Source: Rickettsiales bacterium
Lineage (GTDB): Bacteria; Pseudomonadota; Alphaproteobacteria; Rs-D84
Length of the DNA: 38,741 nucleotides
NCBI GenBank assembly: GCA_031267375.1
Contig: JAIRZE010000086.1
Coordinates: forward strand, 1-38,741
Direction: 5' to 3'
Positions 91 through 30,463 of the stretch are shown in pieces (the stretch's first letter is position 1; every line of letters begins with the position of its first letter). Made by a program: the position numbers and the translations under genes. The notes below the pieces were generated by a model, which worked only from the letters and a program-made list of their open reading frames with translations, had not been told where the DNA came from and ran no database searches.

Positions 91-543
91 ATGTATACAA
101 AAAAAATTACGGCAAAACAGCAAGAATTTTGCGAAGCTGTTGTTTTTAAAAAAAAATCTTATAAGGAAGCTTTTTTGGCCGCATACGGCCAGGGCAACTA
201 TAAAAATGATGTATTGATCCGAAAAGCGTCCAAAGTTGCCAAAAATCAAAAAGTATTGGCCGAGATTGCAAGATTGCGGGATTCAATTCTTAAAAAAGTT
301 AAAGAAAAAGAATTGTATACTCGCGAGAAATGGCTGGCCGAGGCTGAAGCGGTCCGCGAATTAGCACTGCGCGGCGAGAAGCCAAATTTATTGGCCGCGT
401 TGCGGGCGATTCGCGAAAAAGCCGATGCCGCCGGCATTAATATTGCCAAATCAGAGGTTGAAATAAAAGGAGCGCCCGAAATTAAAGTGTCAAACCAGTC
501 AGATCTGAATGCGTTAAAGGATTTGGATAAATGCTGCGCCTGA
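91..543 (+). CDS. terS: Terminase small subunit
   Basis: N-terminal 'ITAKQQEFCEAVV' HTH-like start typical of TerS; directly upstream of and overlapping terL. Confidence 0.8.
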   Translation: MYTKKITAKQQEFCEAVVFKKKSYKEAFLAAYGQGNYKNDVLIRKASKVAKNQKVLAEIARLRDSILKKVKEKELYTREKWLAEAEAVRELALRGEKPNLLAALRAIREKADAAGINIAKSEVEIKGAPEIKVSNQSDLNALKDLDKCCA

Positions 544-1808
544 CCAAGGTATTCCACAGGATTGTGGAATATATAAAAAGCGGCAAGGTTATAATATTTT
601 GCCGCGGCGGAACATCATCATCAAAAACTTGGTCAATTTTGCAAGTTCTGATTCGTCGCGCCCAAAACGGGCATCAGGTAAATATAATTGGCCTGTCGTA
701 TGTCCATTTGCGCTTGGGTATAATCCGCGATATGCAATTAATCGCGCCGACAGTGGGTATTGATTGGAGCGCGCAATACAAGGTTGGGACAAACAGCCTG
801 TTGTTTCCGGGCGGCGGAATTATTAATTTTATTAGTGTAGATAAAATTGACAAGGCGCACGGATTGCGGTCCGGGGATTTATATATAAACGAGTGCAATT
901 ATCATTCGTGGGAAATTGTTGATCAACTACTCTCGCGCACATCTGGATTAAAGTTTCTGGACTGCAACCCGTCGGCGCGATTTTGGATTATAGATAAAAT
1001 TTTAGAAAATCCAAAATGGAAAGATGTTGCGATAGAAGATGTTAGTACTTATAAGGATAATGAATTTTTAGACGCATCAGTCGTTGCAGCGATTGAAGCC
1101 CACGACCCCGCCAGTAATTGGTGGCGTGTTTATGGCCTGGGCCAGTGGGGGATTCACGAGGGGTTGATTTTTGATAATTTCAAAATTCAGGAATTTAATA
1201 AGAATCAATTCGGCGAATATCGGTATGGGGTAGACTGGGGCTTTGGAACAGACCCTTTTGCGTTTGTTGAATGCGCGATTAATCCGCGGGAAAACAACCT
1301 GTATATATGTCGGGAAATCTATGGCAAAGGGCTGTTGAACCAACAGACCGCGCCGATAGTCAAGGATATTGCCGGCGCCGCAATTGTGATGTGCGACAGT
1401 GCGGAGCCAAAATCAATTGCGGATTATCAAACCGCCGGGATAAACGCAATCGGCGCCGACAAGGGGCACGGTTCCGTGTCGGCAGGTATCAAATATCTGC
1501 AAGGATATAATCAAATTATAATTCATCCGGATTGCGTCCGGGTGGGTTCGGAATTTGGTCAATACAGCTACAAAAAAAACCGGATAAGCGGTGAATATAT
1601 AGCCGAGCCAATAGACGAGTTCAATCACGGGATTGATGCAATCCGGTATGCGCTGAACTTTGACATAACAAGCGGCGATCGTTATAAGCCGCATCTGACT
1701 AAGGCCGAGCGGCAGGCGCAGATTGAAGAAAGTTATAATAAACAGATTGAAGATGTAATTAAACACAGTGGAAAGATAATAATTTCCACAAAAGGAATAA
1801 TACTATGA
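531..1808 (+). CDS. terL: Terminase large subunit (PBSX/Terminase_3-like)
   Basis: Walker A RGGTSSSKT, Walker B LYINE, coupling motif LDCNP, nuclease motifs GVDWGFGTDP, CDSAEP and NHGIDAIRY. Confidence 0.95.
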   Translation: MLRLTKVFHRIVEYIKSGKVIIFCRGGTSSSKTWSILQVLIRRAQNGHQVNIIGLSYVHLRLGIIRDMQLIAPTVGIDWSAQYKVGTNSLLFPGGGIINFISVDKIDKAHGLRSGDLYINECNYHSWEIVDQLLSRTSGLKFLDCNPSARFWIIDKILENPKWKDVAIEDVSTYKDNEFLDASVVAAIEAHDPASNWWRVYGLGQWGIHEGLIFDNFKIQEFNKNQFGEYRYGVDWGFGTDPFAFVECAINPRENNLYICREIYGKGLLNQQTAPIVKDIAGAAIVMCDSAEPKSIADYQTAGINAIGADKGHGSVSAGIKYLQGYNQIIIHPDCVRVGSEFGQYSYKKNRISGEYIAEPIDEFNHGIDAIRYALNFDITSGDRYKPHLTKAERQAQIEESYNKQIEDVIKHSGKIIISTKGIIL

Positions 1809-2074
1809 ATTTCAGACCATTAAAAGAATTGGTGCAGATTAAGATTTGCGCGGATTTAGAAAAGTCAGATCAGTTATTCGTTCGCGACAATGGCGATAGT
1901 GGAGATGCGAAGCAAACGCGTATCGTTAAAATTATTGCAAAGGGCGAGAGCTGCCGCGATACATATCAGGTTGGAGATAATTGTCTGATAGTGGACGGCC
2001 AACAATTGGAATCACCAGAAACGGGTTTAACCCTTTGTTTTGATATGGATATCTTGGGGGTCTTAAATGGTTGA
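1805..2074 (+). CDS. groES: Phage-encoded GroES/Cpn10-like co-chaperonin
   Basis: MNFRPLKELVQIK resembles MKIRPLHDRVIVK. It has a hydrophobic mobile-loop triad (LFV), 'IIAKGE...YQVGDNCLI' and C-terminal 'DMDILGVL' (compare ESDILAIV). 89 aa; ATGA overlap with the terL stop. Confidence 0.82.
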   Translation: MNFRPLKELVQIKICADLEKSDQLFVRDNGDSGDAKQTRIVKIIAKGESCRDTYQVGDNCLIVDGQQLESPETGLTLCFDMDILGVLNG

Positions 2075-4085
2075 TTTTAATAAATCTTCGTATTGGCTGC
2101 AAAAAATTTCAAAATACAAGAATGATAAAAGAGTGGAAAGCTTTCTGGATTCCGGTTTCCAAATCCTGCGGCGCCTGCGAAATAAAAAAAATTCAAATGC
2201 TTTGAAATTCAGTTGGGCTGATATTTCATCGTGCCTGAGCAATACAGAAAACATTGAAGATGGTTATAATCTTTTGTTTCAGGTTATAAAAACCATATCG
2301 CCCTTTTTAATATCATACATCCCAGATCCGATAGTTGACCGGCGCGATCGCGAGCAAAATCCAGTCGCCAGAATGGCGTGCGAGATTTTAGAGCGCACTA
2401 TATCTTATAATTTGGATATTTCGGATTTCAAAAACGCGTATTTTCGCGCGCGCCAAGATAACTTAATCTTTGGCCGCGGCGTGCTGTGGGCCGAGTATTC
2501 AGCGGAAAATAGCCAAGAAACCGTGCAAGAATCAGATCCGCTGACCGGCGCTGTTATTGAAAGCACTCGCGACATAGTGTCGGACGAAAAAATATCATTG
2601 GTATATGTGGCGCCGTCTGATTTTTTTCATAATGAAGACGCGCGAATTCCAGAAGAGATAAAATGGTATGCGCGGCGCAAGTTCGTAAGCCCTGATTACA
2701 TAAAATCAGCATTTCCCGGCGCCCGCGTCCAAGAATCCACCGCGTCCAAAAAAGCAAAAATAATTGAAGTAGATGACCCAAAAACGGGCGATGACAATAT
2801 AGAGCTTTTTGAAATCTGGAATGTTGCTGATAAAAAGATTTACTGGGTATCGCCGCAAGTTATTGCAGAAGATATGGAATCTGTCTTGGCGGCGCAAGAT
2901 TTTTACTGGGATGTCCCTGCGCCTTGCCAGATGTTGGTGCTGAATGAAACAAATGACAATATCATCCCGACATCGTTATTATCGCAGATTTTGCCCCAGC
3001 AAAACGAAATTGACCTTTTGTCATCGCGCATAACACGGCTGTCAAAGGCTTTGAAAGTAAAAGGCGCTTATGATAAATCAATCAGCGAAATGGGCGACTT
3101 TTTGTCGGACGCCAACGATACGGCGATGAATCCTGTTGATGTTATTAAATATATTGACAAGGGCGGTATCCAAAATGCGCTGTATTTTATGCCGCTAGAC
3201 ACCATAAAGCAGGCGCTGGATTACTGCAAGCAGGCGCGGCAAGATTTGATAGATTTATCGCTGCGCAACATTCAAATTAATCCAATATTAGAGGGACAAA
3301 CCAATAGCAACGAAGCCTTTGGCACTAATCGCATTAAGGGCAGCTTTGGCATTATGTCGGTCCAAGATATGCAACGCGTTTGTGCAGAATTTTTGGAAGC
3401 CTGCGTCAAAATGCAAGCAAATATAATATGTCAGGAATTTGAATCGTATAACATCGCGGATTATGCCAATATGCCGTTTGACGCGGAAACCGCCCCCGCT
3501 TTGGAGCTGTTAAAGTCTGAGAAAATCCGCAATACAGAAATCTGCGTGGAAATTGAATCAACAAAAGCCTATTACGACGAAGTTTATCAGGCCCGCATTG
3601 CCGCGTTTATGAGCACTTTGCAGCAGGATATCCAAAATGCGCAACAGGTGATTGCAGGGGCGCCGGAACTGGCCGATGTCTTTAAATTAATCATATTACA
3701 AAAGGTTCGCAGTCAGCGAATTGGCCGAATGTTTGAAGCGGGTTTGGAAAAATCCTTGGAAGAATTGGTTGCTAAAGTCAAGCAGGCCGCCGCGCAACCC
3801 GCGCCGCCGCCGCAACCGGACCCCACGGCAATGGCAACAATACAAGCACGCGAAGCCGGATCTATCCAGCGCGAGCAGGTCAGGCAGACCGCCGAAAACG
3901 ATCGCGCCGACAAGAAAATGGCGATAGAGGCGATGAATCTGGAAATCAAGCGCGAAGACTTGCGCATCAAGCAAGCCAGCGATCGTGCAAAAGAGCTTCT
4001 TAAAAACAAGGAATTGGACGCGGAAATAATAGCGAACCAAGAGCGGGTCGCCGCTGGATTAATTCCGGACGCCAATCTGGGATAA
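2067..4085 (+). CDS. Portal protein
   Basis: 672 aa immediately after the terminase genes; 'RARQDNLIFGRGVLWAEY' portal-like segment and a coiled-coil C-terminus. Confidence 0.88.
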   Translation: MVDFNKSSYWLQKISKYKNDKRVESFLDSGFQILRRLRNKKNSNALKFSWADISSCLSNTENIEDGYNLLFQVIKTISPFLISYIPDPIVDRRDREQNPVARMACEILERTISYNLDISDFKNAYFRARQDNLIFGRGVLWAEYSAENSQETVQESDPLTGAVIESTRDIVSDEKISLVYVAPSDFFHNEDARIPEEIKWYARRKFVSPDYIKSAFPGARVQESTASKKAKIIEVDDPKTGDDNIELFEIWNVADKKIYWVSPQVIAEDMESVLAAQDFYWDVPAPCQMLVLNETNDNIIPTSLLSQILPQQNEIDLLSSRITRLSKALKVKGAYDKSISEMGDFLSDANDTAMNPVDVIKYIDKGGIQNALYFMPLDTIKQALDYCKQARQDLIDLSLRNIQINPILEGQTNSNEAFGTNRIKGSFGIMSVQDMQRVCAEFLEACVKMQANIICQEFESYNIADYANMPFDAETAPALELLKSEKIRNTEICVEIESTKAYYDEVYQARIAAFMSTLQQDIQNAQQVIAGAPELADVFKLIILQKVRSQRIGRMFEAGLEKSLEELVAKVKQAAAQPAPPPQPDPTAMATIQAREAGSIQREQVRQTAENDRADKKMAIEAMNLEIKREDLRIKQASDRAKELLKNKELDAEIIANQERVAAGLIPDANLG

Positions 4086-4088
4086 CCA

Positions 4089-4412
4089 ATGATTCCGTGG
4101 AACCAAAGTCTTGGCGAAGATTTGATTAAAATATCCAGCGAGCAGGATTTGAAAGAATTCTGCCGCCGAACCAATCAGATCAATATAACCGCAAATGCCG
4201 AAGAATTTATATCCGACAGCCATAAGGTTTCAGATTTTGAAAAAAAGCAGCGAACGCTGCGGATGCGGCAAAAGATGTTTGATGTCGCAAACAAACTGAG
4301 ATTCGGAGCGGTCCCCGCGCCGGACCGGTTTCATATCTGCCGGCTGGATTTTGATAAATTCAAGGTTCGCCGGCGTAATAACGCAGACATTGTACGCAAG
4401 TCTGCCAAATGA
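4089..4412 (+). CDS. Hypothetical protein (head module)
   Basis: 107-aa ORF filling the portal-scaffold gap with 3-15 nt spacing. Confidence 0.6.
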   Translation: MIPWNQSLGEDLIKISSEQDLKEFCRRTNQINITANAEEFISDSHKVSDFEKKQRTLRMRQKMFDVANKLRFGAVPAPDRFHICRLDFDKFKVRRRNNADIVRKSAK

Positions 4413-4427
4413 TCCAAAGGAGCACAA

Positions 4428-5534
4428 ATGACCGACTTAAAAGAAGTTCAAGATAAGGTAAAACATAGTATTTTAGAGCAGGTTGGCGCAGAAAATATGG
4501 ATGACGCCGAAGCCGCGCTGCAAAAACAGCAATTGGCCATAGAGCTGGCCGCAGATATTCCGGTTGATGATCCGGATGATGAAAAAGATCCCGATGAAGC
4601 GGACCCAAAACCCACCTCCGCAGATCCGAACAAACCGGACGATAGTCCAAAACCCACCCCCGCCGATGATGATAAAACATTGCCGGCCCCTGATCTGACC
4701 GAAGAGGAATCTTTGGCTTTGGCGCCTTTCAAAAAAGAAATAAAAGATAAATTGGTGTCAATTCCGGAAGATATTCGGGCAGAAATCGTCAGGGTTAATT
4801 CCGTAAGTCAAAAATATATAGAACGTCTGGAAAACGATAAAAAAGCATACCAAGAATCAATTCAGCCCGTTTACGGATATCTGTCATCGGTTGCAAAATC
4901 AAGCCAGATTCCCATAAATGAAGTCGTGCGAAATTGCGTCAATTGGATCCAATCTTTGGAAGTTAGCCCAGAGCAGACAATTTTGAATGCTTTGCTGGCC
5001 GGCAATATCAGATTAAATTCACCCGAAACAATCTTGCGCGGAATTGAAAGGATTTACAATATTAAAACAACAAGAACTGAACAAGAAGAGCAAATGGCTC
5101 TTGCGAATGACAGGGCCTTTCTGGCGGAGCAGAATCTGCAAGCCAGCAGGAACTTTCAGTCCCATATGCGCGACGCGGAAATCGCCACAGCCGAAAACGA
5201 ATTGATTTCAACAATCGGCGCTTTCAAAGACGCGCACAATGGGTTTGATGTCAGCAGTCCACTATTTCAGTATTTCGTAATCCAAGAGGAAAAGAAAGCC
5301 GACGGACGCGACGCGTTGAATATTATGGAATCCGCATTTGCGGCGATGAACGCGGCATATCCCCAGACGCCGCCAGCCAATCCGATACCGCCAAAAGTGG
5401 TTGATGTCAATAAAAAGCTGGCCAAGGTGGCGCCAAAAAACAACGGGGTATCCGGCGCAGACACGCCCGTAAAAGCCGAAAGTCTGGAAGAAGTTCGCAA
5501 GAATCTGAATAAATCTTTTTCAGCATTAATCTAA
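4428..5534 (+). CDS. Capsid scaffolding/assembly protein
   Basis: Acidic, Pro/Asp-rich disordered N-terminus and helical body; AGGAG RBS; immediately upstream of the major capsid gene. Confidence 0.75.
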   Translation: MTDLKEVQDKVKHSILEQVGAENMDDAEAALQKQQLAIELAADIPVDDPDDEKDPDEADPKPTSADPNKPDDSPKPTPADDDKTLPAPDLTEEESLALAPFKKEIKDKLVSIPEDIRAEIVRVNSVSQKYIERLENDKKAYQESIQPVYGYLSSVAKSSQIPINEVVRNCVNWIQSLEVSPEQTILNALLAGNIRLNSPETILRGIERIYNIKTTRTEQEEQMALANDRAFLAEQNLQASRNFQSHMRDAEIATAENELISTIGAFKDAHNGFDVSSPLFQYFVIQEEKKADGRDALNIMESAFAAMNAAYPQTPPANPIPPKVVDVNKKLAKVAPKNNGVSGADTPVKAESLEEVRKNLNKSFSALI

Positions 5535-5546
5535 AAGGAAAATAAA

Positions 5547-6512
5547 ATGGCAGATGGAAATCTGAATTTTGACACAATGAAAGCAACCACGATAGACGAG
5601 TACTCTCGCTATCTGGATGATAATGTGTCTATTAACAATGAGCTGGGTAAGGATTTGAAAGCCCGCGGAAACTTGCGCCCCGATCGCGGCGGCTTGCGTA
5701 TTTTGGAAAGTTTATCCTATGCGTTTGCCGGCGATAAAGACGGGTTTGCGTTTCGTTTTACCGGGTCGGCTGAAATCCCGCTTCCCAATAAAAAGTTCGC
5801 CACCGCCGCGGAATTTGAAAGAAAGATGATCGCATCCCCGATTGTCTTTACAGACAGCGAGCGGCTGGCCAACTCTGGCGTGGCGCAAATGATTGACGAA
5901 ATCCAAGCGAAAGTTGAGAATGCGGCAGTGCTGATTCAGAATACTTTGGCAAACGACGAATATTCGGCAGGCGCGATTACCGATCAGATCGGCGGATTGC
6001 AGTTGTTGGTCCAGGATACTTTATCCGGCGCTGTCGGCGGAATCAATCAGCAGTCCAATCCTTGGTGGCGAAATTCCACCCAATCTGGCGCTTTGGCGAT
6101 AGAAAACATAGGTGGTTTTATGACCAATATGTATCTGGCAACAAAGTGCAACGCTGAAACGATTACCAACATATACGGCGATAACACCACTTGGACTTAT
6201 TACTATCAGTCCTTGGCGGATTTGCAGCGCTTTACCAACACCGACGGCAAAGGCGGCTTCACACCAAATTCCGTCGCGTTTATGGGTAATATACCCGTTA
6301 AACTGGACGGCGGTATCGGCGGATGCTGTCCCGTGGGCCATATGTACGGTCTGAATTTGGGCAAGATTTTCTTACGTGAAAATAAAGACTGGAAAGGCAA
6401 GCGCGGATTGCAGAAAGCAATTAATCAGGCGGTTGAAGTGGATATGTTCCGCTGGGCGGGCACGATGACCACATCGGGGCGCCGCTATCACGGCGTTATC
6501 TTTAACAGCTAA
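5547..6512 (+). CDS. Major capsid protein (HK97-fold, inferred)
   Basis: 'FDTMKATTIDEYSRYLDDNV...L...GGLRILESLSY' capsid-like N-terminus, 321 aa, strong AAGGA RBS, position after the scaffold gene. Confidence 0.88.
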   Translation: MADGNLNFDTMKATTIDEYSRYLDDNVSINNELGKDLKARGNLRPDRGGLRILESLSYAFAGDKDGFAFRFTGSAEIPLPNKKFATAAEFERKMIASPIVFTDSERLANSGVAQMIDEIQAKVENAAVLIQNTLANDEYSAGAITDQIGGLQLLVQDTLSGAVGGINQQSNPWWRNSTQSGALAIENIGGFMTNMYLATKCNAETITNIYGDNTTWTYYYQSLADLQRFTNTDGKGGFTPNSVAFMGNIPVKLDGGIGGCCPVGHMYGLNLGKIFLRENKDWKGKRGLQKAINQAVEVDMFRWAGTMTTSGRRYHGVIFNS

Positions 6513-6521
6513 ACATCAACC

Positions 6522-6541
6522 AACCCCGGGCAACCGGGGTT
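6522..6541 (+). other. GC-rich hairpin with GCAA tetraloop after the capsid gene
   Basis: AACCCCGG-GCAA-CCGGGGTT; no U-tract follows on the + strand. Confidence 0.7.
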
Positions 6542-6560
6542 AAACAAAAAAGGAAATGAT

Positions 6561-6890
6561 ATGTCAGCAGTAGCAAGTTTTGCATTGGATACAGTCTGGA
6601 CGCCGCACGAACGCGCGATTACCGGCGTGCAACCGGGCGATTTCGTGGACGGGAAACAGGGGCGCGGCGTTGTCGCGCTGTTTCCGGCCGCGGTTAGCGC
6701 CAACACGGCGGTGTATGTTGACGGCACCTTTAACGGTACCGCAACATCGGCAACCGGAACACTGGCGGGCGTCGTTAACGCAGATGTCGCAGCCGGCAGT
6801 TATGCTGTCGTGCAGATAGAGGGATTGACTGGCGCGGGCGCCTGGATAGTTCCGACTGTCGTCGCGGCTGCACCGTCAGGTGGCGCATAA
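6561..6890 (+). CDS. Capsid decoration/cement protein (putative)
   Basis: 109-aa Ala/Gly/Val-rich, beta-type ORF directly after the capsid gene, followed by a terminator. Confidence 0.6.
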   Translation: MSAVASFALDTVWTPHERAITGVQPGDFVDGKQGRGVVALFPAAVSANTAVYVDGTFNGTATSATGTLAGVVNADVAAGSYAVVQIEGLTGAGAWIVPTVVAAAPSGGA

Positions 6891-6900
6891 CCCAAGCAAT

Positions 6901-6926
6901 AGTGCCGGCATCCTTTTGCCGGCACT
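6901..6926 (+). terminator. Intrinsic terminator between the decoration gene and groEL
   Basis: AGTGCCGGCA-tccttt-TGCCGGCACT followed by a short T run. Confidence 0.65.
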
Positions 6927-6953
6927 TTAATATATTGAAAAAGGATAATAAAA

Positions 6954-8258
6954 ATGCAAAAATGTAAGATAAAACGCGGAATTAACAAGGTTGTAGACTG
7001 TGTCGCCAAGACAGCGGGAAAATATGGCAAAAACATAATATTCACAAATTCAGCAGATTCAATCGCCACAAAAGACGGCGTGTCCGTCGTCCGTATGTTT
7101 AACCTGACGGATTCGGCAGAGATGACCGGCGTGAATCTGGTGCGGCAAGCTTGCGAGCAACAATTGCGCGAACACGGCGATGGCACGACGGCGACAGCGG
7201 TAATTATGCGCGAATTTTGCAAGCATAAATACACGCGCCAAGATATAGATTTTATTGATGTACAGCTTGAAAATTTGGAATTAAACAAGCTTCAAAATTG
7301 GGATTTAATGGATATAGCGACTGTATCCAGCAACGGCAATATGCCGATCAGCGCCGCGGTTGTGGAAGCTGTTAAAAAAATAGGCATAAACGGCAAGTTT
7401 ACCGGCGAACAGTGGTTTGAAAAAGGCATAAAAGTCAAGTATGCCCACGGTTTTGAATTCGGAAATGGTTTTATTTCAGAACAATTCGCAGATTCTGGGC
7501 AGTGGCACGCGATTAACCCCAAAGTGCTGATTTTTGATAATTATTCCGCAAGCGACAAAACACTGTTGGATGTCATATCCGCAAGCTTTCAGGCGGGTCA
7601 GCCGGTGCTGATTATCGGCAATCCGGACGAGTTGTTCTTGCGAAATGCAATTAATTGGAAAGGTGCCGGCAAGGGCGATATATGCCTGGTCCAGCCGTAT
7701 GGTATGGGCCACATTCGCCGAGATTTTATGAAAGATATTTTAGAGATCGCCGCCGTTGGAGTGGAAGAAGTGTATGTTAAGAATCATAGTACTGTTATAA
7801 GGTATTCCGGCGACCTATCGGATTATATCGCGAAGATTGAATCGTTGGAATTTGAAAGCGAATTGGAAAGGACTGAAAATAACGAGCGGATTGCCCGTTT
7901 GAAAGGCAATGTTGCGCGCTTTTTGGTTGGCGAGGATACAATCGCCGGCCTGCGCGCTGCAACCGACTGTCTGGATGACACTATTAAATCCTGTCTGTCG
8001 GCCGAAAAGCACGGCGCAGTCAAGGGCGGCGGGTTGGCGTTGTTTGAAGCGTCCAAGTCTGCGCATCTGCATCCGGCGTTAAGGGCGGCGATGCGGGCAC
8101 CGTATAAAAGCCTGCGCCGTTTGGGCAAAGTTGTCATAAGCGGCGATATAATAGATAGCGCCGGAGTTGTGAAAGCTTCATTGAAAAACGGCTGGGAGGC
8201 GGCAAAGCAGTTTATTAAGTCTGCCGATTTAATAATAGCCAAAGAGCCTGCGCGATGA
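6954..8258 (+). CDS. groEL: Phage-encoded, shortened GroEL/Cpn60-like chaperonin
   Basis: TKDGVSV, GDGTT, ATVSSNG (compare TISANS), ERIARLKGNVA (compare ERVAKLAGGVA), LDDT (D398 position), GAVKGGGLAL and IIDS. 434 aa; no GGM tail. Confidence 0.93.
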   Translation: MQKCKIKRGINKVVDCVAKTAGKYGKNIIFTNSADSIATKDGVSVVRMFNLTDSAEMTGVNLVRQACEQQLREHGDGTTATAVIMREFCKHKYTRQDIDFIDVQLENLELNKLQNWDLMDIATVSSNGNMPISAAVVEAVKKIGINGKFTGEQWFEKGIKVKYAHGFEFGNGFISEQFADSGQWHAINPKVLIFDNYSASDKTLLDVISASFQAGQPVLIIGNPDELFLRNAINWKGAGKGDICLVQPYGMGHIRRDFMKDILEIAAVGVEEVYVKNHSTVIRYSGDLSDYIAKIESLEFESELERTENNERIARLKGNVARFLVGEDTIAGLRAATDCLDDTIKSCLSAEKHGAVKGGGLALFEASKSAHLHPALRAAMRAPYKSLRRLGKVVISGDIIDSAGVVKASLKNGWEAAKQFIKSADLIIAKEPAR

Positions 8259-8848
8259 GCTATAACGAAATAGAACTTAAAAGAATACAGAAAAGCCGCG
8301 ATATACCGGCTTTTTTCTTTGTAAAACCACTGTACAACAGCGCGAAAAGCTTGTCCGCCGGCCGCCCCATATATGATCCGGTAATAATGCTGCAAGTTGA
8401 CACTGGCGGAACAGCAACTGTTGAAATAAAAGAATTTGCCGCGACGCCTGAATTAAAAAAACTGTATTCTGACGCTTGGAAATTTTTTGAAACCTATCAG
8501 GCGCCGCAGGTAAGAACCGGTATAAACGATCTGGAAATAGAAGAGCTGGCCGAACAGCACCCAGAAATTTATAGGGAATATATAAAGAATTGCAAAACCG
8601 CAACCGGGATAAGCGGGACACTAATTGAAGAACTGAACATTATTCCGATATCGGTGGTCCAAGAGTTGAAATCAATAGGTGTGTTTTATATAGAGCAGAT
8701 CTGGGATGAAACCGTGCCAACCGAAATTATAACAAGGGAAATATTGGACGCGGCCAAGCGCTATAAAAAGCTGTCCGAGCATAATTTTGATCTGAATCAG
8801 CTGGCCGACACGATAGACCAACTTTGCGATAAATTGGAAAATAAATAA
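8255..8848 (+). CDS. Hypothetical phage protein (head-tail junction)
   Basis: ATGA overlap with the groEL stop. 'S..AGRPIYD' and 'GT.IEEL..I....V.ELK.IG....EQ' recall a family I associate with this position in podophages. Confidence 0.6.
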   Translation: MSYNEIELKRIQKSRDIPAFFFVKPLYNSAKSLSAGRPIYDPVIMLQVDTGGTATVEIKEFAATPELKKLYSDAWKFFETYQAPQVRTGINDLEIEELAEQHPEIYREYIKNCKTATGISGTLIEELNIIPISVVQELKSIGVFYIEQIWDETVPTEIITREILDAAKRYKKLSEHNFDLNQLADTIDQLCDKLENK

Positions 8849-9538: not shown

Positions 9539-9566
9539 AAAAACACCCGCAAAAGCGGGTGTTTTT
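9539..9566. terminator. Bidirectional intrinsic terminator
   Basis: AAAAACACCCGC-AAAA-GCGGGTGTTTTT. Confidence 0.85.
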
Positions 9567-18795: not shown

Positions 18796-19142
18796 TGGCG
18801 GAAAAAATCAACTCTAAAGAAGAAAATTTGAAATGGGCAAAAGAAACTGTTGCTGCCAGAATTGCTGAAAATCTGATCAAGGAATCAGAATCAATTAAAG
18901 AATATCTGCCTTTGATCCAAATATTGGAAGATAATAATTTTAAGGGCGGCGCCCGGATGATTCGCGAAATTATCGCGGACGAGAAAAATCACATAATCCT
19001 ACTTATGGGGTTAATTCGCGAATTTGACGGCAATATTCCAAATTCCAACCGCCGCCGACTACGTGGAACAGGCGTTAAAACAAATCAGAACCAACTTACA
19101 GGAAGAATAAATGCCAATAGACACAATACTAAGTCGGGATAA
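18795..19142 (+). CDS. Half-ferritin (ExxY...DExxH) protein with an apparently frameshifted C-terminus
   Basis: 'KESESIKEY...IIADEKNH'. A tandem ATTCCAA x2 at 19035-19048 shifts the frame away from a TAA at 19108-19110 that abuts the next ATG. Confidence 0.6.
   Translation: MAEKINSKEENLKWAKETVAARIAENLIKESESIKEYLPLIQILEDNNFKGGARMIREIIADEKNHIILLMGLIREFDGNIPNSNRRRLRGTGVKTNQNQLTGRINANRHNTKSG
19035..19048 (+). repeat. 7-nt tandem duplication ATTCCAA x2
   Basis: Read directly from the sequence. Confidence 0.9.
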
Positions 19143-21192
19143 CCAGAATAATTTGGCGTTGCGAGTTTTAATAAATGATCCGGCGCAGCTAAAAGACGAA
19201 CTATTAACGCGCGACGAACACGGCAACCTGTGTATGCGCGTTGATTTGCAGGGTGGCACCGGCCCGCAAGGAGCGCAGGGCGCACAGGGGAATCAAGGCG
19301 CCCAGGGTGTAGTTGGCGCCCAAGGCCCGCAAGGGGATATTGGCGCAACCGGCGCCCAGGGGAATCAAGGCTGGCAGGGCATCGTCGGCGCCCAAGGTCC
19401 CCAGGGCGCGGACGGAATATCTGTGAATATTCAACCGGGTGTGTATTCGGCGTCAAACCCGCTGCCGGCATTTGGCACGACAGCCGAGGGACAGGCTTTT
19501 ATATACCAAGATTCCAACAATCTTTACGATTTATATATACATCCAATCGGCGGGACAGGCTGGCTGATTATTGATGATTGGGCCGGTATTCCCGGGCCAA
19601 CCGGCCCGCAAGGTAGTCAAGGCCCGCAGGGACCAACCGGCCCGCAAGGGGTCAGCGGGTCAGCGGGTCCAACTGGCGCACAGGGTCCAACTGGCGCCCA
19701 AGGCCCAACCGGCCCGCAAGGAGCGCAGGGCGCACAGGGGAATCAAGGCACTGTTGGCGCACAGGGTGTGCGCGGATTCCAAGGGTATCAAGGTCAGCAG
19801 GGCTATCAAGGCACACAGGGTTATCAGGGTTCCGTCGGCGCCCAAGGTGCAACCGGCGCCCAAGGGGTCAGTGGTCCCCAAGGCTCTACCGGCGCAACCG
19901 GTAATCAAGGCTGGCAAGGTAATGTCGGAGCCACCGGCCCGCAGGGTCCAATAGGCGGCTCTGACGGAGCTGCCACCATAGGTAGCCGTATAATTATAAA
20001 CGCTGCCCGCAGCGTGCAAGAGCAGGACCAGCAGGGGACTATCAGTCTGTCCGGCACCACGGCATTCAGCATCGCGGACCACTGGTCCGTACATCCGGAA
20101 ATCTTCACATCCCTTGTTAACGCGGGCATCTTTATTAATAACGGCGACGGAACTTTTGTTGCATCTCCAAACGCGCGGAGCATAGAAAGGTATAATACGA
20201 GTGCCAACAGCGCTATATCGCTTAGCCTTAGTGTTGGAAGTTATACCAGTCCAGCCACTGGTATACTTGTATATACTAATGCGACAGGGAGTGGAAGTAA
20301 CAACAGCCAAAACGGCATAGTTATAACCATTAATGGTACCCGCTATGATATGATACACGGGTGGAGTGGCGCGGATTATATGTCCGGTTTCGGAACCGTA
20401 TATATCAACAAGGGCGACACTTACGAAATCTTATATACAAACAACGGAACTCTGCTAATCCAGCCGGCAATATATCGTAATGACGAATATATCATCACGG
20501 ACAAGTATATATCCAATTACACCGCGCCAGCGGCGGCGCCTGTGTTTAACTATGCCGTTGGCGATATTACAATAAAAAGCATACCGCTGTCTGTATCAGA
20601 GCAGGATTCGCTTGGCGCCATAAGCCTTGACAGCACTAGCGCGTGGAACATCGCGACGCACTGGGCAAACAATATGACGCAGTACAATGCGTTAGTTGCA
20701 GAGGGTGCGTTGATAGACAATGGCAACGGTACTTTCACTGTCAATAATTTTTATGCAGGATTTACCTGCAAACAAAAGATTTTTGACACCGGATTTCAGG
20801 AAGTAAATGATATTGTTATATCTGGAACAGATAATCAGGTTTGGCCGCATAATCTGAATCTGACACAGAATCAGATTGAAGCTGGAATTACTTTCCGTAT
20901 ATATCTAAAATACAAAGGAAGTCCGGGAAGCACAAATTATCCCGCTGGCTCGGTCTTTGAATCAGACATCCGGGACGATGCCGCATTCCCGGAGTATCCA
21001 GTGATATCGGCAAACAATATTTCATTCGGCGCAAGTGCACCGACGCAAATATGTGTTTTTTATAATAGCAATGGAGCCACTGCTTGGGTTGGATATAACA
21101 ACAATAGTAATTCTTTTCTTATGAAATGGATTTTGGAAGCAAACGCGCCGATAAAGAATGGCTATCTTATTACTGGTAAATGGGGGGCGTAG
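19111..21192 (+). CDS. Collagen-like (Gly-X-Y) fibre protein
   Basis: Two long G-X-Y tracts ([12 protein letters not shown]) and a duplicated domain 'SV.EQD..G.ISL..T.A..IA.HW.......LV..G..I.NG.GTF'. Confidence 0.85.
19258..19749 (+). repeat. 42-bp exact direct repeat in the collagen tracts (19258-19299 and 19708-19749)
   Basis: ACCGGCCCGCAAGGAGCGCAGGGCGCACAGGGGAATCAAGGC occurs twice, 450 nt apart. Confidence 0.85.
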
Positions 21193-25303: not shown

Positions 25304-25704
25304 CAGAAAATACTTAAATTATCGGGTTTCGGCTCCCCGGAATTGTTATAGGCATCCAGTGCCGCCTGAGCGGATACCAATATGTCTTTGCGCAATTTAT
25401 CTTCGTTAATCGGTACCATACATAACTCTTCCATATACTCCGCTAGCTTAGCTAATTTGTAATAATCTTCCCTGTCCAAGGCATTTTGTAAGTCGTATTC
25501 TTCGGGTATTAGCACATAACTAACTATTAATCTTTTATCTTTTGGTAAGCGACATTCTAGATCGTGCTTACCAAAATCACCAATATCGGTGAATTTATCT
25601 ATCGTTTCTTTTACAAATTCAATAAGTTCAGTGGCAGTGCCACTTGATGGGAATCCCGCTTTCAAAACAGCTTCAAAGTCAGCTGAGAGTATTATGGTTT
25701 TCAT
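25303..25704 (-). CDS. Hypothetical protein, first gene of the leftward operon
   Basis: True start is ATG 25704 (MKTI...), after the AAGGAG RBS inside the inverted repeat. Confidence 0.7.
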   Translation of the reverse strand: MKTIILSADFEAVLKAGFPSSGTATELIEFVKETIDKFTDIGDFGKHDLECRLPKDKRLIVSYVLIPEEYDLQNALDREDYYKLAKLAEYMEELCMVPINEDKLRKDILVSAQAALDAYNNSGEPKPDNLSIF

Positions 25705-25801
25705 CGTCAAATCTCCTTTGGTTAGGCTTATTGTAGATTAATCTACTTTAATTGTCAAATAAAAAATGTAGATTGTTCTTAATAATAAGAGGATAGGGAT
25801 T
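25699..25801 (-). repeat. Left copy of a perfect 103-bp inverted repeat (leftward promoter, operator, RBS, ATG-AAA)
   Basis: Base-by-base reverse complement of 27698-27800. Confidence 0.97.
25730..25758 (-). promoter_or_regulatory. Leftward sigma70-type promoter with overlapping palindromic operator GTAGATTAATCTAC (25733-25746)
   Basis: TTGACA-17 nt-TACAAT on the minus strand. A degenerate second operator copy (10/14 match) lies at 25768-25781. Confidence 0.85.
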
Positions 25802-25830: not shown

Positions 25831-26208
25831 ATGCTGACTAACAAACAAATAATAGCCAGAATTCGCTCTATTGCCAGCGCAAAAGGGATAAAAAACGATG
25901 CTGAAATTGCAAGGCGCGCCGGAACAACTCACGTAATGCTTATAGATATTCCAAATCTAAAAACATCCCCCCGCTTGGATACCATAGACAAGTTCGCGCG
26001 CGCTCTTGGCGTATCGGTTTCAGATTTAATTTACCCCGAACAATCACAAAAAGATACCGAAATGCTGGAAATATGGAATCAATTAAACGATTCGGAACAA
26101 TCCGAAATGCGCGGACTGATGTCCGGAATAATTTTACGCAGAAAATACGGACTGGATTCTGATTCTGAGCATAAAAAAACATTACCAAAGAAATCCGCCG
26201 CCGCATAA
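25831..26208 (+). CDS. XRE/cI-like HTH repressor (no S24 peptidase domain)
   Basis: 'DAEIARRAG...SPRLDTIDKFARALGVSVSDLI' HTH; 125 aa; divergent from the leftward promoter. Confidence 0.85.
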   Translation: MLTNKQIIARIRSIASAKGIKNDAEIARRAGTTHVMLIDIPNLKTSPRLDTIDKFARALGVSVSDLIYPEQSQKDTEMLEIWNQLNDSEQSEMRGLMSGIILRRKYGLDSDSEHKKTLPKKSAAA

Positions 26209-27699: not shown

Positions 27700-27800
27700 T
27701 CCCTATCCTCTTATTATTAAGAACAATCTACATTTTTTATTTGACAATTAAAGTAGATTAATCTACAATAAGCCTAACCAAAGGAGATTTGACGATGAAA
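27698..27800 (+). repeat. Right copy of the perfect 103-bp inverted repeat (rightward promoter, operator, RBS, ATG-AAA)
   Basis: Reverse complement of 25699-25801. Confidence 0.97.
27741..27769 (+). promoter_or_regulatory. Rightward sigma70-type promoter with operator palindrome GTAGATTAATCTAC (27753-27766)
   Basis: TTGACA 27741-46, 17-nt spacer, TACAAT 27764-69; AAGGAG 27781-86; ATG 27795. Confidence 0.85.
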
Positions 27801-28789: not shown

Positions 28790-28887
28790 AACTTGTAATA
28801 GCGCCATTTTGGATGAATTGGGCATTTTGGGCCGCTGGATATAACTCCTATTATGTGTTTGTAAATATAGATAAATGGGTTAAATAA
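28786..28887 (+). CDS. Small Trp-rich peptide (33 aa) translationally coupled to the integrase
   Basis: ATGA overlap upstream and TAATG overlap with the integrase start; MKLVIAPFWMNWAFWAAGYNSYYVFVNIDKWVK. Confidence 0.45.
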   Translation: MKLVIAPFWMNWAFWAAGYNSYYVFVNIDKWVK

Positions 28888-30452
28888 TGAGCAACAACGC
28901 AGTCATTTATGCCAGAGTGTCTTCGGCCCAGCAGCGCCGGGATAATTCCATTGCGTCCCAGCTGGACGCCTGTCGCAAGTATGCGGCGGCGCGGGGTATG
29001 ACTGTGGTCCGTGAATTTATGGATGACGGATTTTCGGGCAAAAATGACCAGCGGCCGGACTTACAAAATATGCTGCGTTGGCTGAAAAAGAATCCGGACA
29101 CAACGGTCATAGCTTACGATACATCGCGCATAGCCCGGCATATCGGAACTATGTGCAATATCAGCGACGCAATAGATGTGGCGGATTGCAGTTTGTCATT
29201 CGTGGTAATGAACTTTGATAAAACGCCCGAGGGCGAATTTATGAAGAATATGATTTCCGCCCAGAATCAATACTTCCGCGAATCCAATACAAGAAAGGTA
29301 AAAGACAGTATGCTGAGCCAGATGAAGCTGGGTATATACCTGCTGAATCCGCCAATAGGATATGCAAGGTCAAGGGACGGCCAGAAACGACTGGTACTGG
29401 TAAGGGACGAGCCAACAGCAACGATAATAGCGGAAGCAATAGGCAAATACGCCACAGGACAACTGAATACAAAGCTTGATGTTGCAGACTGGCTGAACAA
29501 AAGACTGTCAAAGCCGATAGGTGAAGACACGGCCCGAAGAATAGTAGAGAGCCCAGTATACACTGCAAGGTTTGCTTACAAGCCCTGGGGTATACCAGAG
29601 CAGGATTGGCATATAGAACCAATAATAACCCCAGAACTGCACCAAAGGGTAATGGATAGGATAAAAGGCATAGGAAGACACCAGATGCGAAGCAACCTAC
29701 TTGAAGACTTTCCATTACGGGGATATGTAATCTGTGGATACTGCGGACACCCATTGACCAGCTGTTGGTCAAGTGGAAAGAATAATAAGTTCCCATACTA
29801 TTTTTGCTCCCAGAAAGGATGCAGTCATTATGGCAAGTCAATCCGCCGGGCGGACATTGAAGATGCAATGCTGACCGTTTTAAGCGACATCAGGGCAGAT
29901 GATAGCATTCTTGCGCTGGTTGACCTTATTATTGACAATGTTGCAGAAAAAGCGCATAATGAAGCATTGGCAAGCGCGAAGAACTTAAACGGCGTTATTG
30001 CCGATATTCAGAAAGAAATTGATGCGCTGGTGGATTTGATTGCGAAGCGCTCTTTGAATTGTGCGCTGGCCAATGACCCAGTGGCGGCGCAGTACGAAGA
30101 CAAGATTTGGAAATTGACTTCCCGGATTCAGGAATTGAAAGCAGATCAAAAGAATCTGGAAACCGGGCACGCAGGCAAGGATTATAGGGCAGCGTTTGAA
30201 CGGACGCGTGAGTTCATTAGAACACCTGTAAAATTGTTTGAAAATGGCGATTTATCGCAGAAAAGAAAGGTGCTTGAAGTAGTATTCAAGGGTAAACCGA
30301 GGTATTTCAGAAATGAGGGTTATAGAACACCGGAAATAGCCGAGATTTTCAGCATTTTATCAGAAAAAAACGAGAGTAAAATAGATTGGTGCACCCGGCG
30401 CGATTCGAACGCGCAATCCCCGCCTTCGGAGGGCGATGCTCTATCCAGTTAA
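28887..30452 (+). CDS. int: Large serine recombinase (integrase)
   Basis: YARVSS catalytic motif, D.GFSG...RP.L, SRIAR, recombinase domain, zinc ribbon CGYCG...YYFC...C, coiled coil. Confidence 0.95.
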   Translation: MSNNAVIYARVSSAQQRRDNSIASQLDACRKYAAARGMTVVREFMDDGFSGKNDQRPDLQNMLRWLKKNPDTTVIAYDTSRIARHIGTMCNISDAIDVADCSLSFVVMNFDKTPEGEFMKNMISAQNQYFRESNTRKVKDSMLSQMKLGIYLLNPPIGYARSRDGQKRLVLVRDEPTATIIAEAIGKYATGQLNTKLDVADWLNKRLSKPIGEDTARRIVESPVYTARFAYKPWGIPEQDWHIEPIITPELHQRVMDRIKGIGRHQMRSNLLEDFPLRGYVICGYCGHPLTSCWSSGKNNKFPYYFCSQKGCSHYGKSIRRADIEDAMLTVLSDIRADDSILALVDLIIDNVAEKAHNEALASAKNLNGVIADIQKEIDALVDLIAKRSLNCALANDPVAAQYEDKIWKLTSRIQELKADQKNLETGHAGKDYRAAFERTREFIRTPVKLFENGDLSQKRKVLEVVFKGKPRYFRNEGYRTPEIAEIFSILSEKNESKIDWCTRRDSNAQSPPSEGDALSS

Positions 30453-30463
30453 GCCACGGGTGC
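30387..30463 (-). tRNA. tRNA-Arg(CCG), probable prophage attachment site
   Basis: Minus strand GCACCCG...CTCCGAA...GTTCGAATC...CGGGTGC-A-CCA; all stems pair; 77 nt. Confidence 0.95.

What the first reader, a model, noticed from the sequence alone, without database searches (positions are those of the whole stretch)
1805..8258. Small temperate phage carries its own GroES + GroEL pair inside the head operon
Seen: a Cpn10-like gene is coupled between terL and portal by overlapping start/stop codons, and a Cpn60-like gene follows the capsid and decoration genes. Established: T4/RB49 encode only a co-chaperonin that uses host GroEL, while the characterised phage GroELs (EL gp146, OBP gp246, AR9 gp228) come from jumbo lytic phages. 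Inference: this is a complete, split, late-expressed folding machine dedicated to virion proteins in a prophage with only ~30 kb visible, which is atypical. It may be an undescribed minimal chaperonin system, possibly needed because host GroEL cannot fold this capsid or portal.
Basis: partly seen in the sequence, partly recalled or inferred. Interest (0 to 1): 0.85.

Follow-up and report, generated by a model that had tools for sequence, protein, structure and literature searches.

The report
Compact phage GroEL-GroES pair in prophage
A prophage in a tiny-genome gut bacterium carries its own shortened GroEL and very divergent GroES among its head-building genes. This is a compact form of the virus-encoded chaperonin pairs already known from marine phages, and no such pair has been tested in the laboratory.

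Summary
An 89-aa gene (1805-2074) sits between terL and portal with overlapping start and stop codons. A 434-aa gene (6954-8258) follows the capsid gene and a small head gene.

The 434-aa protein is a true GroEL homologue (solved GroELs E 3.6e-33; predicted fold matches 1AON at E 3e-27). It keeps the ATP-site residues. It lacks about 110 residues, including both inter-ring contact regions and the C-terminal tail.

The 89-aa protein gets no Pfam hit but is a divergent Cpn10. The family profile matches canonical GroES (97% probability, E 3e-11), the predicted fold matches GroES and T4 gp31, and a profile search recovers bona fide Cpn10 proteins.

The two genes travel together. They occur in three phage lineages in three different gene orders, adjacent and overlapping in one. 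Among 328 genomes of the host order, exactly the same five carry both genes. The GroEL is not a recent host capture and is under purifying selection.

The novelty claim is overstated. Viral GroEL+GroES operons were described in 2017, and 60-72 kb phage isolates are annotated with both genes.

Verdict: a new compact variant, probably a single ring closed by a lid. Activity and partner binding are untested.

The parts
531..1808 (+). Terminase large subunit. Its stop codon overlaps the start of the Cpn10-like gene (ATGA).
   Evidence: Pfam Terminase_3C 1.3e-22; PHROG terL 3.9e-42; junction read.
1805..2074 (+). 89-aa divergent Cpn10/GroES-like co-chaperonin. It has a GroES-like N-terminus (MNFRPL...), a long flexible loop carrying LFV where GroES has IVL, no roof hairpin, and the family motif KG..C..Y.VGD.
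   Evidence: No Pfam or PDB sequence hit. hhalign of the family against canonical GroES gives 96.8-97.2% probability, E 2e-10 to 3e-11, over the full length. AF2 pLDDT is 82.4. The top 27 Foldseek PDB hits are all Cpn10, including 1AON_O and T4 gp31 1G31. BFVD top hits are viral GroES. The family profile finds Pfam-positive Cpn10 proteins and host groES genes.
2067..4085 (+). Portal protein. It overlaps the Cpn10-like gene by 8 nt.
   Evidence: PHROG portal 1.2e-80; junction read. The Cpn10-like gene sits directly before the portal gene in at least 6 related contig lineages.
4428..5534 (+). Scaffold-like protein.
   Evidence: Its position, and 24-33% identity to the equivalent genes of related phages. 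No family hit.
5547..6512 (+). Major capsid protein, the likely client of the chaperonin (inferred).
   Evidence: PHROG major head protein 5.6e-51; 35-40% identical to the capsid proteins of related phages.
6561..6890 (+). Small head-module protein (putative decoration protein; function not verified).
   Evidence: Its position, and weak similarity to the 103-105 aa protein that follows the capsid gene in relatives.
6954..8258 (+). 434-aa shortened GroEL homologue. The ATP site is intact. The inter-ring contact regions, part of the apical domain, the adenine-pocket loop and the Gly-Met tail are deleted.
   Evidence: PHROG groEL 3.6e-50; Pfam Cpn60_TCP1 34.0 bits against a cut-off of 34.3; PDB GroELs 3.6e-33; AF2 pLDDT 84.7; Foldseek 1AON_A E 3.6e-27, TM 0.76; residue map.
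8255..8848 (+). 197-aa conserved virion-module protein, translationally coupled to the GroEL gene (ATGA).
   Evidence: Junction read. Homologues follow the small post-capsid (decoration-position) gene in relatives L003 and L005, and follow GroEL in L006. No family hit.
9539..9566 (+). Strong terminator-like hairpin that closes the head-gene unit.
   Evidence: 12-bp stem followed by a T run.
25831..26208 (+). Cro/C1-type HTH repressor-like gene of the lysogeny region.
   Evidence: Pfam HTH_26 1e-05, HTH_3 3.9e-05.
28887..30452 (+). Large serine recombinase (integrase) at the right end of the prophage. Its 3' end runs into tRNA-Arg.
   Evidence: Pfam Resolvase 4.8e-28 and Zn_ribbon_recom; PHROG integrase 2e-73.
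30387..30463 (-). tRNA-Arg(CCG) at the junction between prophage and host. Host genes follow (aquaporin, tRNA-Phe, PMP-repeat protein, release factor).
   Evidence: ARAGORN; Pfam. The release factor is about 80% identical to those of Candidatus Enterousia and gut Alphaproteobacteria MAGs.

Best explanation
The prophage belongs to a family of temperate phages of small-genome (about 1 Mb) gut Alphaproteobacteria related to Candidatus Enterousia. Their morphogenesis module carries a private, compact group I chaperonin system.

The 434-aa GroEL homologue keeps the equatorial ATPase site, the hinges and the three-domain fold, so it most likely forms an ATP-driven ring (inferred). Every segment that makes inter-ring contacts in E. 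coli GroEL is deleted or replaced, and so is the Gly-Met tail. The ring is therefore probably single (inferred).

The 89-aa protein is a GroES-fold co-chaperonin with a flexible loop carrying a hydrophobic triplet (LFV) and no roof hairpin. It most likely caps the phage ring as a lid, as Hsp10 caps mitochondrial Hsp60 (inferred from strict genomic linkage).

Both genes are translated from the head operon, together with terminase, portal, scaffold and capsid. The client is most likely the major capsid protein and/or the portal (inferred by analogy with T4 gp23, GroEL and gp31).

Shown here: homology, fold, conserved catalytic residues, purifying selection, and linkage across lineages. Not shown: oligomeric state, ATPase or foldase activity, the identity of the partner, the client, and the timing of expression.
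For: GroEL homology:
- PHROG groEL 3.6e-50 and solved GroELs 3.6e-33.
- AF2 pLDDT 84.7. Foldseek hits to GroEL and mtHsp60 at E 3e-27, with TM 0.76-0.79 to GroES-bound conformers.
- T30, G32, K51, D52, G53, G86-D87-G88-T89-T90, N153, D398, G414 and G416 are invariant in all 10 family members. D495 is D or E.

Cpn10 homology:
- hhalign 97.2%, E 3.3e-11, over 82 columns.
- Foldseek PDB and BFVD top hits are all Cpn10/GroES.
- The family profile retrieves Pfam-positive Cpn10 proteins at library-wide E 5e-4, and hosts' own groES genes at E 1e-4 (compared).

Linkage:
- The window has terL-ES-portal...capsid-small head gene-EL.
- The L003/L005/L007/L008 lineage has terL-EL-(about 200 aa)-ES-portal.
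- Prophages in four other genomes of the host family have EL followed by ES, overlapping, upstream of scaffold and capsid.
- In 328 genomes of the host order, the short GroEL and the Cpn10-like gene occur in exactly the same 5 genomes (6 loci each) and nowhere else.

Not a host capture:
- The short family is a 100%-supported clade on a stem of 2.3 substitutions per site. The host GroEL nests among its relatives.
- Identity to bacterial GroELs in the database search is 24-29%.

Selection:
- dN/dS is 0.07-0.14 for EL and 0.05-0.27 for ES among L003-L008.
- EL diverges at the same pace as capsid and terminase between lineages.
Against: - The Pfam Cpn10 model gives no hit for the 89-aa protein. 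The Pfam Cpn60 score is just under the curated cut-off and covers only residues 15-90.
- The loop that lines the adenine pocket in E. coli GroEL (479-481) is deleted and T91 is Ala, so nucleotide handling may differ.
- The apical groove residues that bind GroES and substrate in E. coli are only partly kept in the window protein (F, Q, F, L, I, L, I, N). They are replaced by charged or small residues in the sister lineages.
- In some lineages the mobile loop is very short. Lid binding by the canonical mechanism is therefore not assured.
- All three phage GroELs studied so far work without a co-chaperonin (PMC9598537).
- There are no expression data, and no complex prediction could be run.
- dS is near saturation, so the dN/dS values are rough. 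For the window's own genes dS is fully saturated.
Confidence: 0.65

Rival explanations
1. The two proteins do not work together. The Cpn10-like protein is a gp31/CocO-type lid that re-tools the host GroEL for capsid folding. The shortened GroEL works alone as a lid-less holdase or foldase, like EL gp146, OBP gp246 and AR9 gp228.
For: The host has a canonical GroEL. T4 gp31 is among the structural matches, with the highest TM of the listed hits. The roof hairpin is missing, as in gp31. The Cpn10-like gene keeps a fixed place before the portal gene while the GroEL gene moves around the module. In contig L124 no GroEL lies between terL and the Cpn10-like gene. The characterised phage GroELs need no lid. 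Apical groove residues are poorly conserved.
Against: Co-occurrence in 328 host-order genomes is perfect, and every contig long enough to judge has both genes. In one lineage the two genes are adjacent and overlapping in GroEL>GroES order, the arrangement Marine et al. found for viral pairs. No relative was found with one gene demonstrably absent.
Confidence: 0.15
2. The 434-aa protein is no longer a folding cage. After losing about 110 residues it serves another ATP-dependent or structural role in head assembly, for example as an assembly platform. The 89-aa GroES-fold protein is a small head or portal accessory protein.
For: The deletions are large, the adenine-pocket loop and C-tail are lost, and the apical groove is variable. 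Both genes sit among structural genes. No Pfam model passes its threshold.
Against: The catalytic and Mg/phosphate-binding residues and both hinge glycines (G192, G410) are conserved across lineages that share only about 30% identity. The predicted structure keeps all three domains. The lid-like protein keeps a flexible loop and the GroES core.
Confidence: 0.12
3. The genes are recent, decaying captures of host groES and groEL carried passively by the prophage.
For: Phages do occasionally capture host GroEL. Marine et al. report viral GroELs about 70% identical to Bacteroidetes genes.
Against: Identity to bacterial GroELs in the database search is only 24-29%, and the host GroEL sits far away in the tree. 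The reading frames are intact. The same deletions are shared by 10 members in three lineages. dN/dS is well below 1. Divergence matches that of the core head genes.
Confidence: 0.02

Closest known systems
Virioplankton GroEL>GroES and GroES>GroEL operons (Marine et al. 2017, ISME J, PMC5649160), and annotated pairs in Cellulophaga phage phi38:1 (72.5 kb), Flavobacterium phage elemoF (60 kb) and isolate ctfjg026 (61 kb)
   Same: A phage-encoded group I chaperonin together with its own co-chaperonin. The genes are distinct from cellular chaperonins, some carriers are presumptively temperate or podovirus-like, and viral GroES often lacks the roof hairpin and has an altered mobile loop.
   Different: Here the GroEL is 419-444 aa against 490-542 aa in those phages. 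It shares at most 27% identity with any of 50,697 phage records. The GroES is too divergent for Pfam. In this window the pair is split by five head genes and sits inside the structural module. The host is a gut alphaproteobacterium with a genome of about 1 Mb. The visible prophage is about 30 kb.
T4 gp31 and RB49 CocO
   Same: A phage GroES-fold co-chaperonin without a roof hairpin, tied to capsid folding. 1G31 is a structural match.
   Different: Those phages have no GroEL of their own and use the host's. Here the gene is strictly linked to a phage GroEL.
Phage chaperonins EL gp146, OBP gp246 and AR9 gp228
   Same: Phage-encoded GroEL homologues. OBP and AR9 are single-ring heptamers (PMC9598537). 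EL gp146 and OBP gp246 are detectable sequence relatives (E 4e-12 and 4e-4).
   Different: Those come from jumbo lytic phages (the AR9 record is 251 kb). EL gp146 and OBP gp246 are 558 and 515 aa. All three work without a co-chaperonin. Here a co-chaperonin gene is always present and the subunit is about 100 residues shorter.
Mitochondrial Hsp60/Hsp10 and engineered single-ring GroEL (SR1) with GroES
   Same: A lid-dependent group I chaperonin that can work as a single ring. The predicted fold superimposes best on lid-bound Hsp60 and GroEL subunits.
   Different: These are not relatives in any close sense. They retain full-length equatorial domains. The single-ring state of the phage protein is inferred only from deleted contact regions.

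Membership tests
Cpn60/GroEL (group I chaperonin, Pfam PF00118) | Score above the curated Pfam threshold | tested here: inconclusive
   34.0 bits against a cut-off of 34.3, residues 15-90 only; 26.4 bits in the six-frame search. The collection's precomputed table lists PF00118. PHROG groEL family 3.6e-50.
Cpn60/GroEL (group I chaperonin, Pfam PF00118) | Significant sequence homology to experimentally solved GroELs over most of the length | tested here: met
   64 PDB sequences matched at E up to 0.01, nearly all GroEL/Hsp60 (two are other chaperonins). Best E 3.6e-33, query 6-378 aligned.
Cpn60/GroEL (group I chaperonin, Pfam PF00118) | Three-domain fold (equatorial, intermediate, apical) | tested here: met
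   AF2 pLDDT 84.7, pTM 0.76. Foldseek 1AON_A, 5OPX_A and mtHsp60 at E 3e-27, TM 0.76-0.79.
Cpn60/GroEL (group I chaperonin, Pfam PF00118) | ATP-binding and hydrolysis residues (T30, K51, D52, GDGTT 86-90, N153, D398, GGG 414-416, D495) | tested here: met
   All are present in the window protein, and all are conserved in 10 family members except G415 (Ala in two) and D495 (D or E). T91 is A or S. The 479-481 loop is deleted.
Cpn60/GroEL (group I chaperonin, Pfam PF00118) | Back-to-back double ring held by contacts at A109, E434/D435, and R452/E461/S463/V464 | tested here: not met
   The segments holding A109, E434/D435 and S463/V464 are deleted in the first alignment, and E461 is replaced (Leu) there and deleted in the second alignment. 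The same deletions are shared by all 10 members, with boundaries depending on the alignment. This points to a single ring but was not observed directly.
Cpn60/GroEL (group I chaperonin, Pfam PF00118) | Gly-Met-rich C-terminal tail | tested here: not met
   The protein ends shortly after the last equatorial strand.
Cpn60/GroEL (group I chaperonin, Pfam PF00118) | Heptameric ring, ATPase and foldase activity | not testable with these tools
   Needs protein work.
Cpn10/GroES (Pfam PF00166) | Match to the Pfam Cpn10 model | tested here: not met
   No hit at E up to 10 for the window protein or four orthologues. The host GroES scores 87.5 bits with the same model.
Cpn10/GroES (Pfam PF00166) | Homology detectable by profile methods | tested here: met
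   hhalign against 23 canonical GroES: 87.6% (5 sequences), 96.8% (15) and 97.2%, E 3.3e-11 (19). The family profile finds Pfam-positive Cpn10 proteins P0138 and P0140 (58.5 and 54.5 bits) among 1.8 billion proteins at E 5-8e-4. It also finds three hosts' groES genes at E about 1e-4.
Cpn10/GroES (Pfam PF00166) | GroES beta-barrel fold | tested here: met
   AF2 pLDDT 82.4. The top 27 PDB matches are all Cpn10 or gp31, probability mostly 1.00 (0.97 for one), TM 0.47-0.63. BFVD top matches are viral GroES.
Cpn10/GroES (Pfam PF00166) | Flexible mobile loop with a hydrophobic triplet that docks on the GroEL apical domain | tested here: inconclusive
   The loop at residues about 18-40 has lower confidence (pLDDT 62-69). 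LFV aligns with host III and E. coli IVL. The sister lineages have shorter loops with KFIPV or AF. Binding was not tested.
Lid-independent phage chaperonins (EL gp146, OBP gp246, AR9 gp228 type) | No co-chaperonin gene in the phage, and function without one | tested here: not met
   A Cpn10-like gene accompanies the short GroEL at every locus where it can be judged.
T4 gp31/CocO-type system | The phage encodes only the lid and uses host GroEL | tested here: not met
   The phage encodes its own GroEL homologue. Whether the lid also binds host GroEL cannot be tested here.

The most novel reading that the evidence does not exclude
This phage family encodes what may be the smallest natural group I chaperonin, with subunits of about 420-444 aa. 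In this reading it is an obligate single ring that has shed its inter-ring interface, part of its apical domain and its C-terminal tails, yet still cycles with its own co-evolving miniature lid. It would be dedicated to folding the capsid and/or portal of a roughly 40-kb temperate phage in a host with a reduced genome. It would be a natural counterpart of engineered SR1-GroES, and the first lid-dependent viral chaperonin open to study.
Probability: 0.35. Interest if true: 0.7.

Novelty: new variant of a known kind. Interest (0 to 1): 0.5.

Why it matters
Every phage GroEL studied biochemically so far works without a lid. Phage GroEL+GroES pairs are known only from sequence.

This family offers a very compact pair, with a subunit about 20% shorter than E. 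coli GroEL. The conserved core shows what a chaperonin ring can lose: the ring-ring interface, the C-tail and an apical segment. It also shows what the ring must keep: the ATP site and the hinges.

If the pair is active, it would be a minimal natural model for single-ring, lid-dependent folding and a compact tool for co-expression. It also shows that small temperate phages of reduced-genome gut Alphaproteobacteria invest about 1.6 kb of a small genome in private protein folding. That suggests host chaperonin capacity or specificity limits capsid assembly.

Tried and rejected
- Pfam and PDB sequence searches with the 89-aa protein and four orthologues found nothing.
- The word-indexed homologue search found only the protein itself.
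- Recent host capture was rejected by the tree and by identity levels.
- dN/dS for the window's own genes cannot be estimated, because synonymous sites are saturated against the nearest relative.
- A second, divergent Cpn10 in relative G025 (L032) is not in a related phage context.
- Two human-faecal phage scaffolds with GroEL fragments (MT835541, MT837446) share nothing else with this phage.
- The GC-rich hairpin at 6903-6927, before the GroEL gene, was not called a terminator. The promoter-like match at 6935-6963 overlaps the start codon, so no separate promoter or terminator is claimed.
- Contig ends show no overlap with other contigs, and early genes of related phages have no match elsewhere in the assembly. 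The left arm of the prophage could not be recovered.
Full report
**What is there.** The window is a whole 38.7-kb contig (C58) of a 0.92-Mb, 78%-complete assembly. Positions 91-30452 are prophage:
- terS, terL, an 89-aa ORF, portal, scaffold and major capsid protein, then a 109-aa small head protein and a 434-aa ORF;
- a run of virion and tail genes, including a collagen-repeat fibre;
- a GH108 endolysin, a methylase fragment, and a Cro/C1-type repressor plus a Pif1-like helicase bracketed by a perfect 103-nt inverted repeat;
- a large serine recombinase whose 3' end runs into tRNA-Arg.

Beyond the tRNA lie host genes: an aquaporin, tRNA-Phe, a PMP-repeat protein and a release factor. The release factor is about 80% identical to those of Candidatus Enterousia and other gut Alphaproteobacteria MAGs. 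Relatives in the same family and order all have genomes of 0.7-1.1 Mb. The contig begins at terS, so the early region of the prophage is off-contig.

**Check of the observation.** The coordinates and the coupling are exact. terL and the 89-aa ORF share ATGA at 1805-1808. The 89-aa ORF and the portal gene overlap by 8 nt. The 434-aa ORF and the next gene share ATGA at 8255-8258. No strong terminator is called between terS and the hairpin at 9539-9566. Both genes therefore belong to the head-gene unit on sequence grounds. Expression timing was not measured.

**The 434-aa protein is a GroEL homologue.**
- It matches PHROG 'chaperonin groEL' at 3.6e-50 and 64 solved chaperonin sequences, nearly all GroEL/Hsp60 (best 3.6e-33).
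- Pfam Cpn60_TCP1 gives 34.0 bits, just under the 34.3 cut-off, on the N-terminal 76 residues only.
- An AlphaFold2 model (pLDDT 84.7) matches GroEL and mitochondrial Hsp60 subunits at E 3e-27. TM is 0.76-0.79 to lid-bound conformers and 0.51-0.58 to apo conformers.
It keeps T30, G32, K51, D52, G53, the GDGTT loop, N153, D398, GGG 414-416, I493 and D495, and the hinge glycines G192 and G410.
- It lacks roughly residues 1-10, 106-120 (with 128-133 in one alignment), 298-318, 425-440, 458-487 and the whole Gly-Met tail. Exact boundaries depend on the alignment.
- The deleted pieces include A109, E434/D435 and S463/V464, and E461 is replaced or deleted depending on the alignment. These are the contact sites that hold the two GroEL rings together. 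The 479-481 loop of the adenine pocket is also deleted.

**The 89-aa protein is a divergent Cpn10.**
- Pfam, PDB sequence and word-indexed searches find nothing.
- Its N-terminus (MNFRPLKELVQIK) resembles GroES. Small ORFs of the same kind sit directly before the portal gene in related contigs, and several of them were never called as genes.
- A profile of the family aligned to 23 canonical GroES proteins from the host clade gives 87.6% probability with 5 sequences. It gives 96.8% (E 2.3e-10) with 15 sequences and 97.2% (E 3.3e-11, 82 columns) with 19 sequences.
- A profile search of 1.8 billion representative proteins returns, besides family members, two proteins that pass the Pfam Cpn10 threshold.
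- In genome searches the family profile also picks out three hosts' own groES genes at E about 1e-4 (same places).
- The AlphaFold2 model (pLDDT 82.4, lowest in the loop at residues 20-40) has Cpn10 chains as its first 27 PDB matches. They include GroES from 1AON and T4 gp31. Viral GroES proteins are its top BFVD matches.
- In the alignments LFV takes the place of the IVL/III triplet of the mobile loop. The roof hairpin is missing and the Tyr71 position is Gln.

**The two genes are a linked pair.** The short GroEL has five relatives in the public protein collection (434-444 aa, 33-51% identical). All are on phage contigs whose terL, portal, scaffold, capsid and tail genes match the window's.
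- In the L003/L005/L007/L008 lineage the order is terL, GroEL, a protein of about 200 aa, the Cpn10-like gene, then portal.
- In the window it is terL, the Cpn10-like gene, portal ... capsid, the small head gene, then GroEL.
- A search of 328 genomes of the host order with the short-GroEL profile found a second, short GroEL in four other genomes of the host's family, twice in one of them.
- At the four of those loci inspected in detail the GroEL gene is followed directly, with overlap, by a Cpn10-like gene, upstream of scaffold and capsid homologues. At the fifth locus the Cpn10-like gene begins where the GroEL match ends.
- A search of the same 328 genomes with the Cpn10-like profile gives strong hits (E below 1e-27) in exactly those five genomes, at six loci, and nowhere else.

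So there are three gene orders, about 30% identity between lineages, and no case where one gene is seen to be missing. This is the main argument that the two proteins function together. It remains genomic inference.

**Not a host capture, and under selection.**
- In a maximum-likelihood tree the short family is a 100%-supported clade on a stem of 2.3 substitutions per site.
- The host GroEL sits among its relatives on short branches. The tool warns that the placement of long branches is unsure, but separation from the host clade is not in doubt.
- Between lineages the GroEL diverges about as much as capsid, terminase and tail genes do.
- Within the L003-L008 subgroup dN/dS is 0.07-0.14 for the GroEL and 0.05-0.27 for the Cpn10-like gene. 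dS is near saturation. For the window's own genes dS is saturated.
- The same deletions and the same catalytic residues are shared by all ten members.

**What is already known.**
- Marine et al. 2017 (PMC5649160) showed that GroEL-carrying viruses are common in marine viromes and that 40% of GroEL contigs also carry GroES, in either order.
- The same study reported that some carriers are presumptively temperate, that structural genes on GroEL>GroES contigs often match Podoviridae-type Cellulophaga phages, and that viral GroES often lacks the roof hairpin or has altered loop residues.
- GenBank records of Cellulophaga phage phi38:1 (72.5 kb), Flavobacterium phage elemoF (60 kb) and isolate ctfjg026 (61 kb) are annotated with both genes.
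- Of 50,697 phage records, 208 hold a GroEL homologue. None is more than 27% identical to this one, and the listed phage records marked complete are all at least about 60 kb.
- The three phage chaperonins that have been purified (EL, OBP, AR9) come from jumbo phages and need no co-chaperonin (PMC9598537).

The claim that such a pair is undescribed is not.

**Most likely mechanism.**
- The shortened GroEL forms an ATP-driven ring. Having lost the ring-ring interface, it is probably a single heptamer.
- The small lid binds its apical domains through the flexible loop and encloses a client made from the same operon, most plausibly the capsid protein or the portal.
- The closest working analogues are mitochondrial Hsp60/Hsp10 and single-ring GroEL variants with GroES. 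Membership of the Cpn60 and Cpn10 superfamilies is supported by homology and fold.

The double-ring and C-tail features of canonical GroEL are tested and not met.

The weak points are these:
- the apical groove residues are variable;
- the loops are very short in sister lineages;
- the adenine-pocket loop is lost;
- there is no biochemical or expression evidence.

The main rival is a gp31-like lid for host GroEL plus a lid-less phage ring. It cannot be excluded, but it fits the strict linkage and the overlapping gene pair less well.

**Verdict.** This is a real pair of genes and a new, compact variant of a known kind of system. Its interest is moderate: it would be the first lid-dependent viral chaperonin worth purifying and may be the smallest natural GroEL. 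It is not a new category.

Noticed in passing
window 30350-30392, and contig C87 5839-5881 of the same assembly: A 43-nt sequence (42/43 identical) lies immediately after the 3' end of tRNA-Arg in the window, inside the integrase 3' end. It also lies immediately after tRNA-Gly(GCC) on contig C87, between a 1271-aa host-like gene and an unannotated 502-aa ORF. It could be the attL/attR repeat, with C87 holding the missing left prophage junction, or a shared tRNA trailer.
   Followed up: partly
window 25699-25801 and 27698-27800: A perfect 103-nt inverted repeat brackets a Cro/C1-type HTH gene (25831-26208) and a Pif1-like helicase (26281-27699).
   Followed up: partly
window 28887-30463: The serine recombinase ORF has no stop before tRNA-Arg and ends 66 nt inside the tRNA gene on the opposite strand. 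tRNA-adjacent integration is unusual for a serine integrase.
   Followed up: no
L032 (G025:C20:5772-6020): A relative of the host carries a second, divergent 86-aa Cpn10 (Pfam E 1e-10). It sits among four paralogous 190-206 aa proteins of unknown function that share no similarity with this phage.
   Followed up: partly
G072 contigs C26 and C130: One genome of the host family holds two copies of the short GroEL plus Cpn10-like pair on different contigs. This could be two related prophages or an assembly duplicate.
   Followed up: no
L114 (Flavobacterium phage elemoF, NC_055853) 255-797 and 5950-7763: Besides its groEL-GroES operon, this 60-kb phage has a second 180-aa protein annotated as co-chaperonin GroES directly next to the terminase large subunit. 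This echoes the terL-adjacent position seen here.
   Followed up: no
L141/L142 (protein P0029, 469 aa): Another shortened GroEL family shares the loss of an apical segment (about 297-318) and of part of the equatorial domain (about 470-490). It sits in the head module of crAss-like marine contigs of 62 to about 110 kb, between an intein-bearing large protein and an 862-aa protein, just upstream of a Crass_capsid gene. No Cpn10 gene is called nearby.
   Followed up: partly
window 6903-6927 and 6520-6543: GC-rich hairpins follow the small head gene (GTGCCGGCA/TGCCGGCAC) and the capsid gene. Neither has a clear T tract. They may attenuate transcription, so that genes downstream of the capsid gene, including GroEL, are made in smaller amounts.
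   Followed up: no
window 19111-21192: The tail fibre has long collagen-like Gly-X-Y repeats (repeat families at 19248-19946).
   Followed up: no
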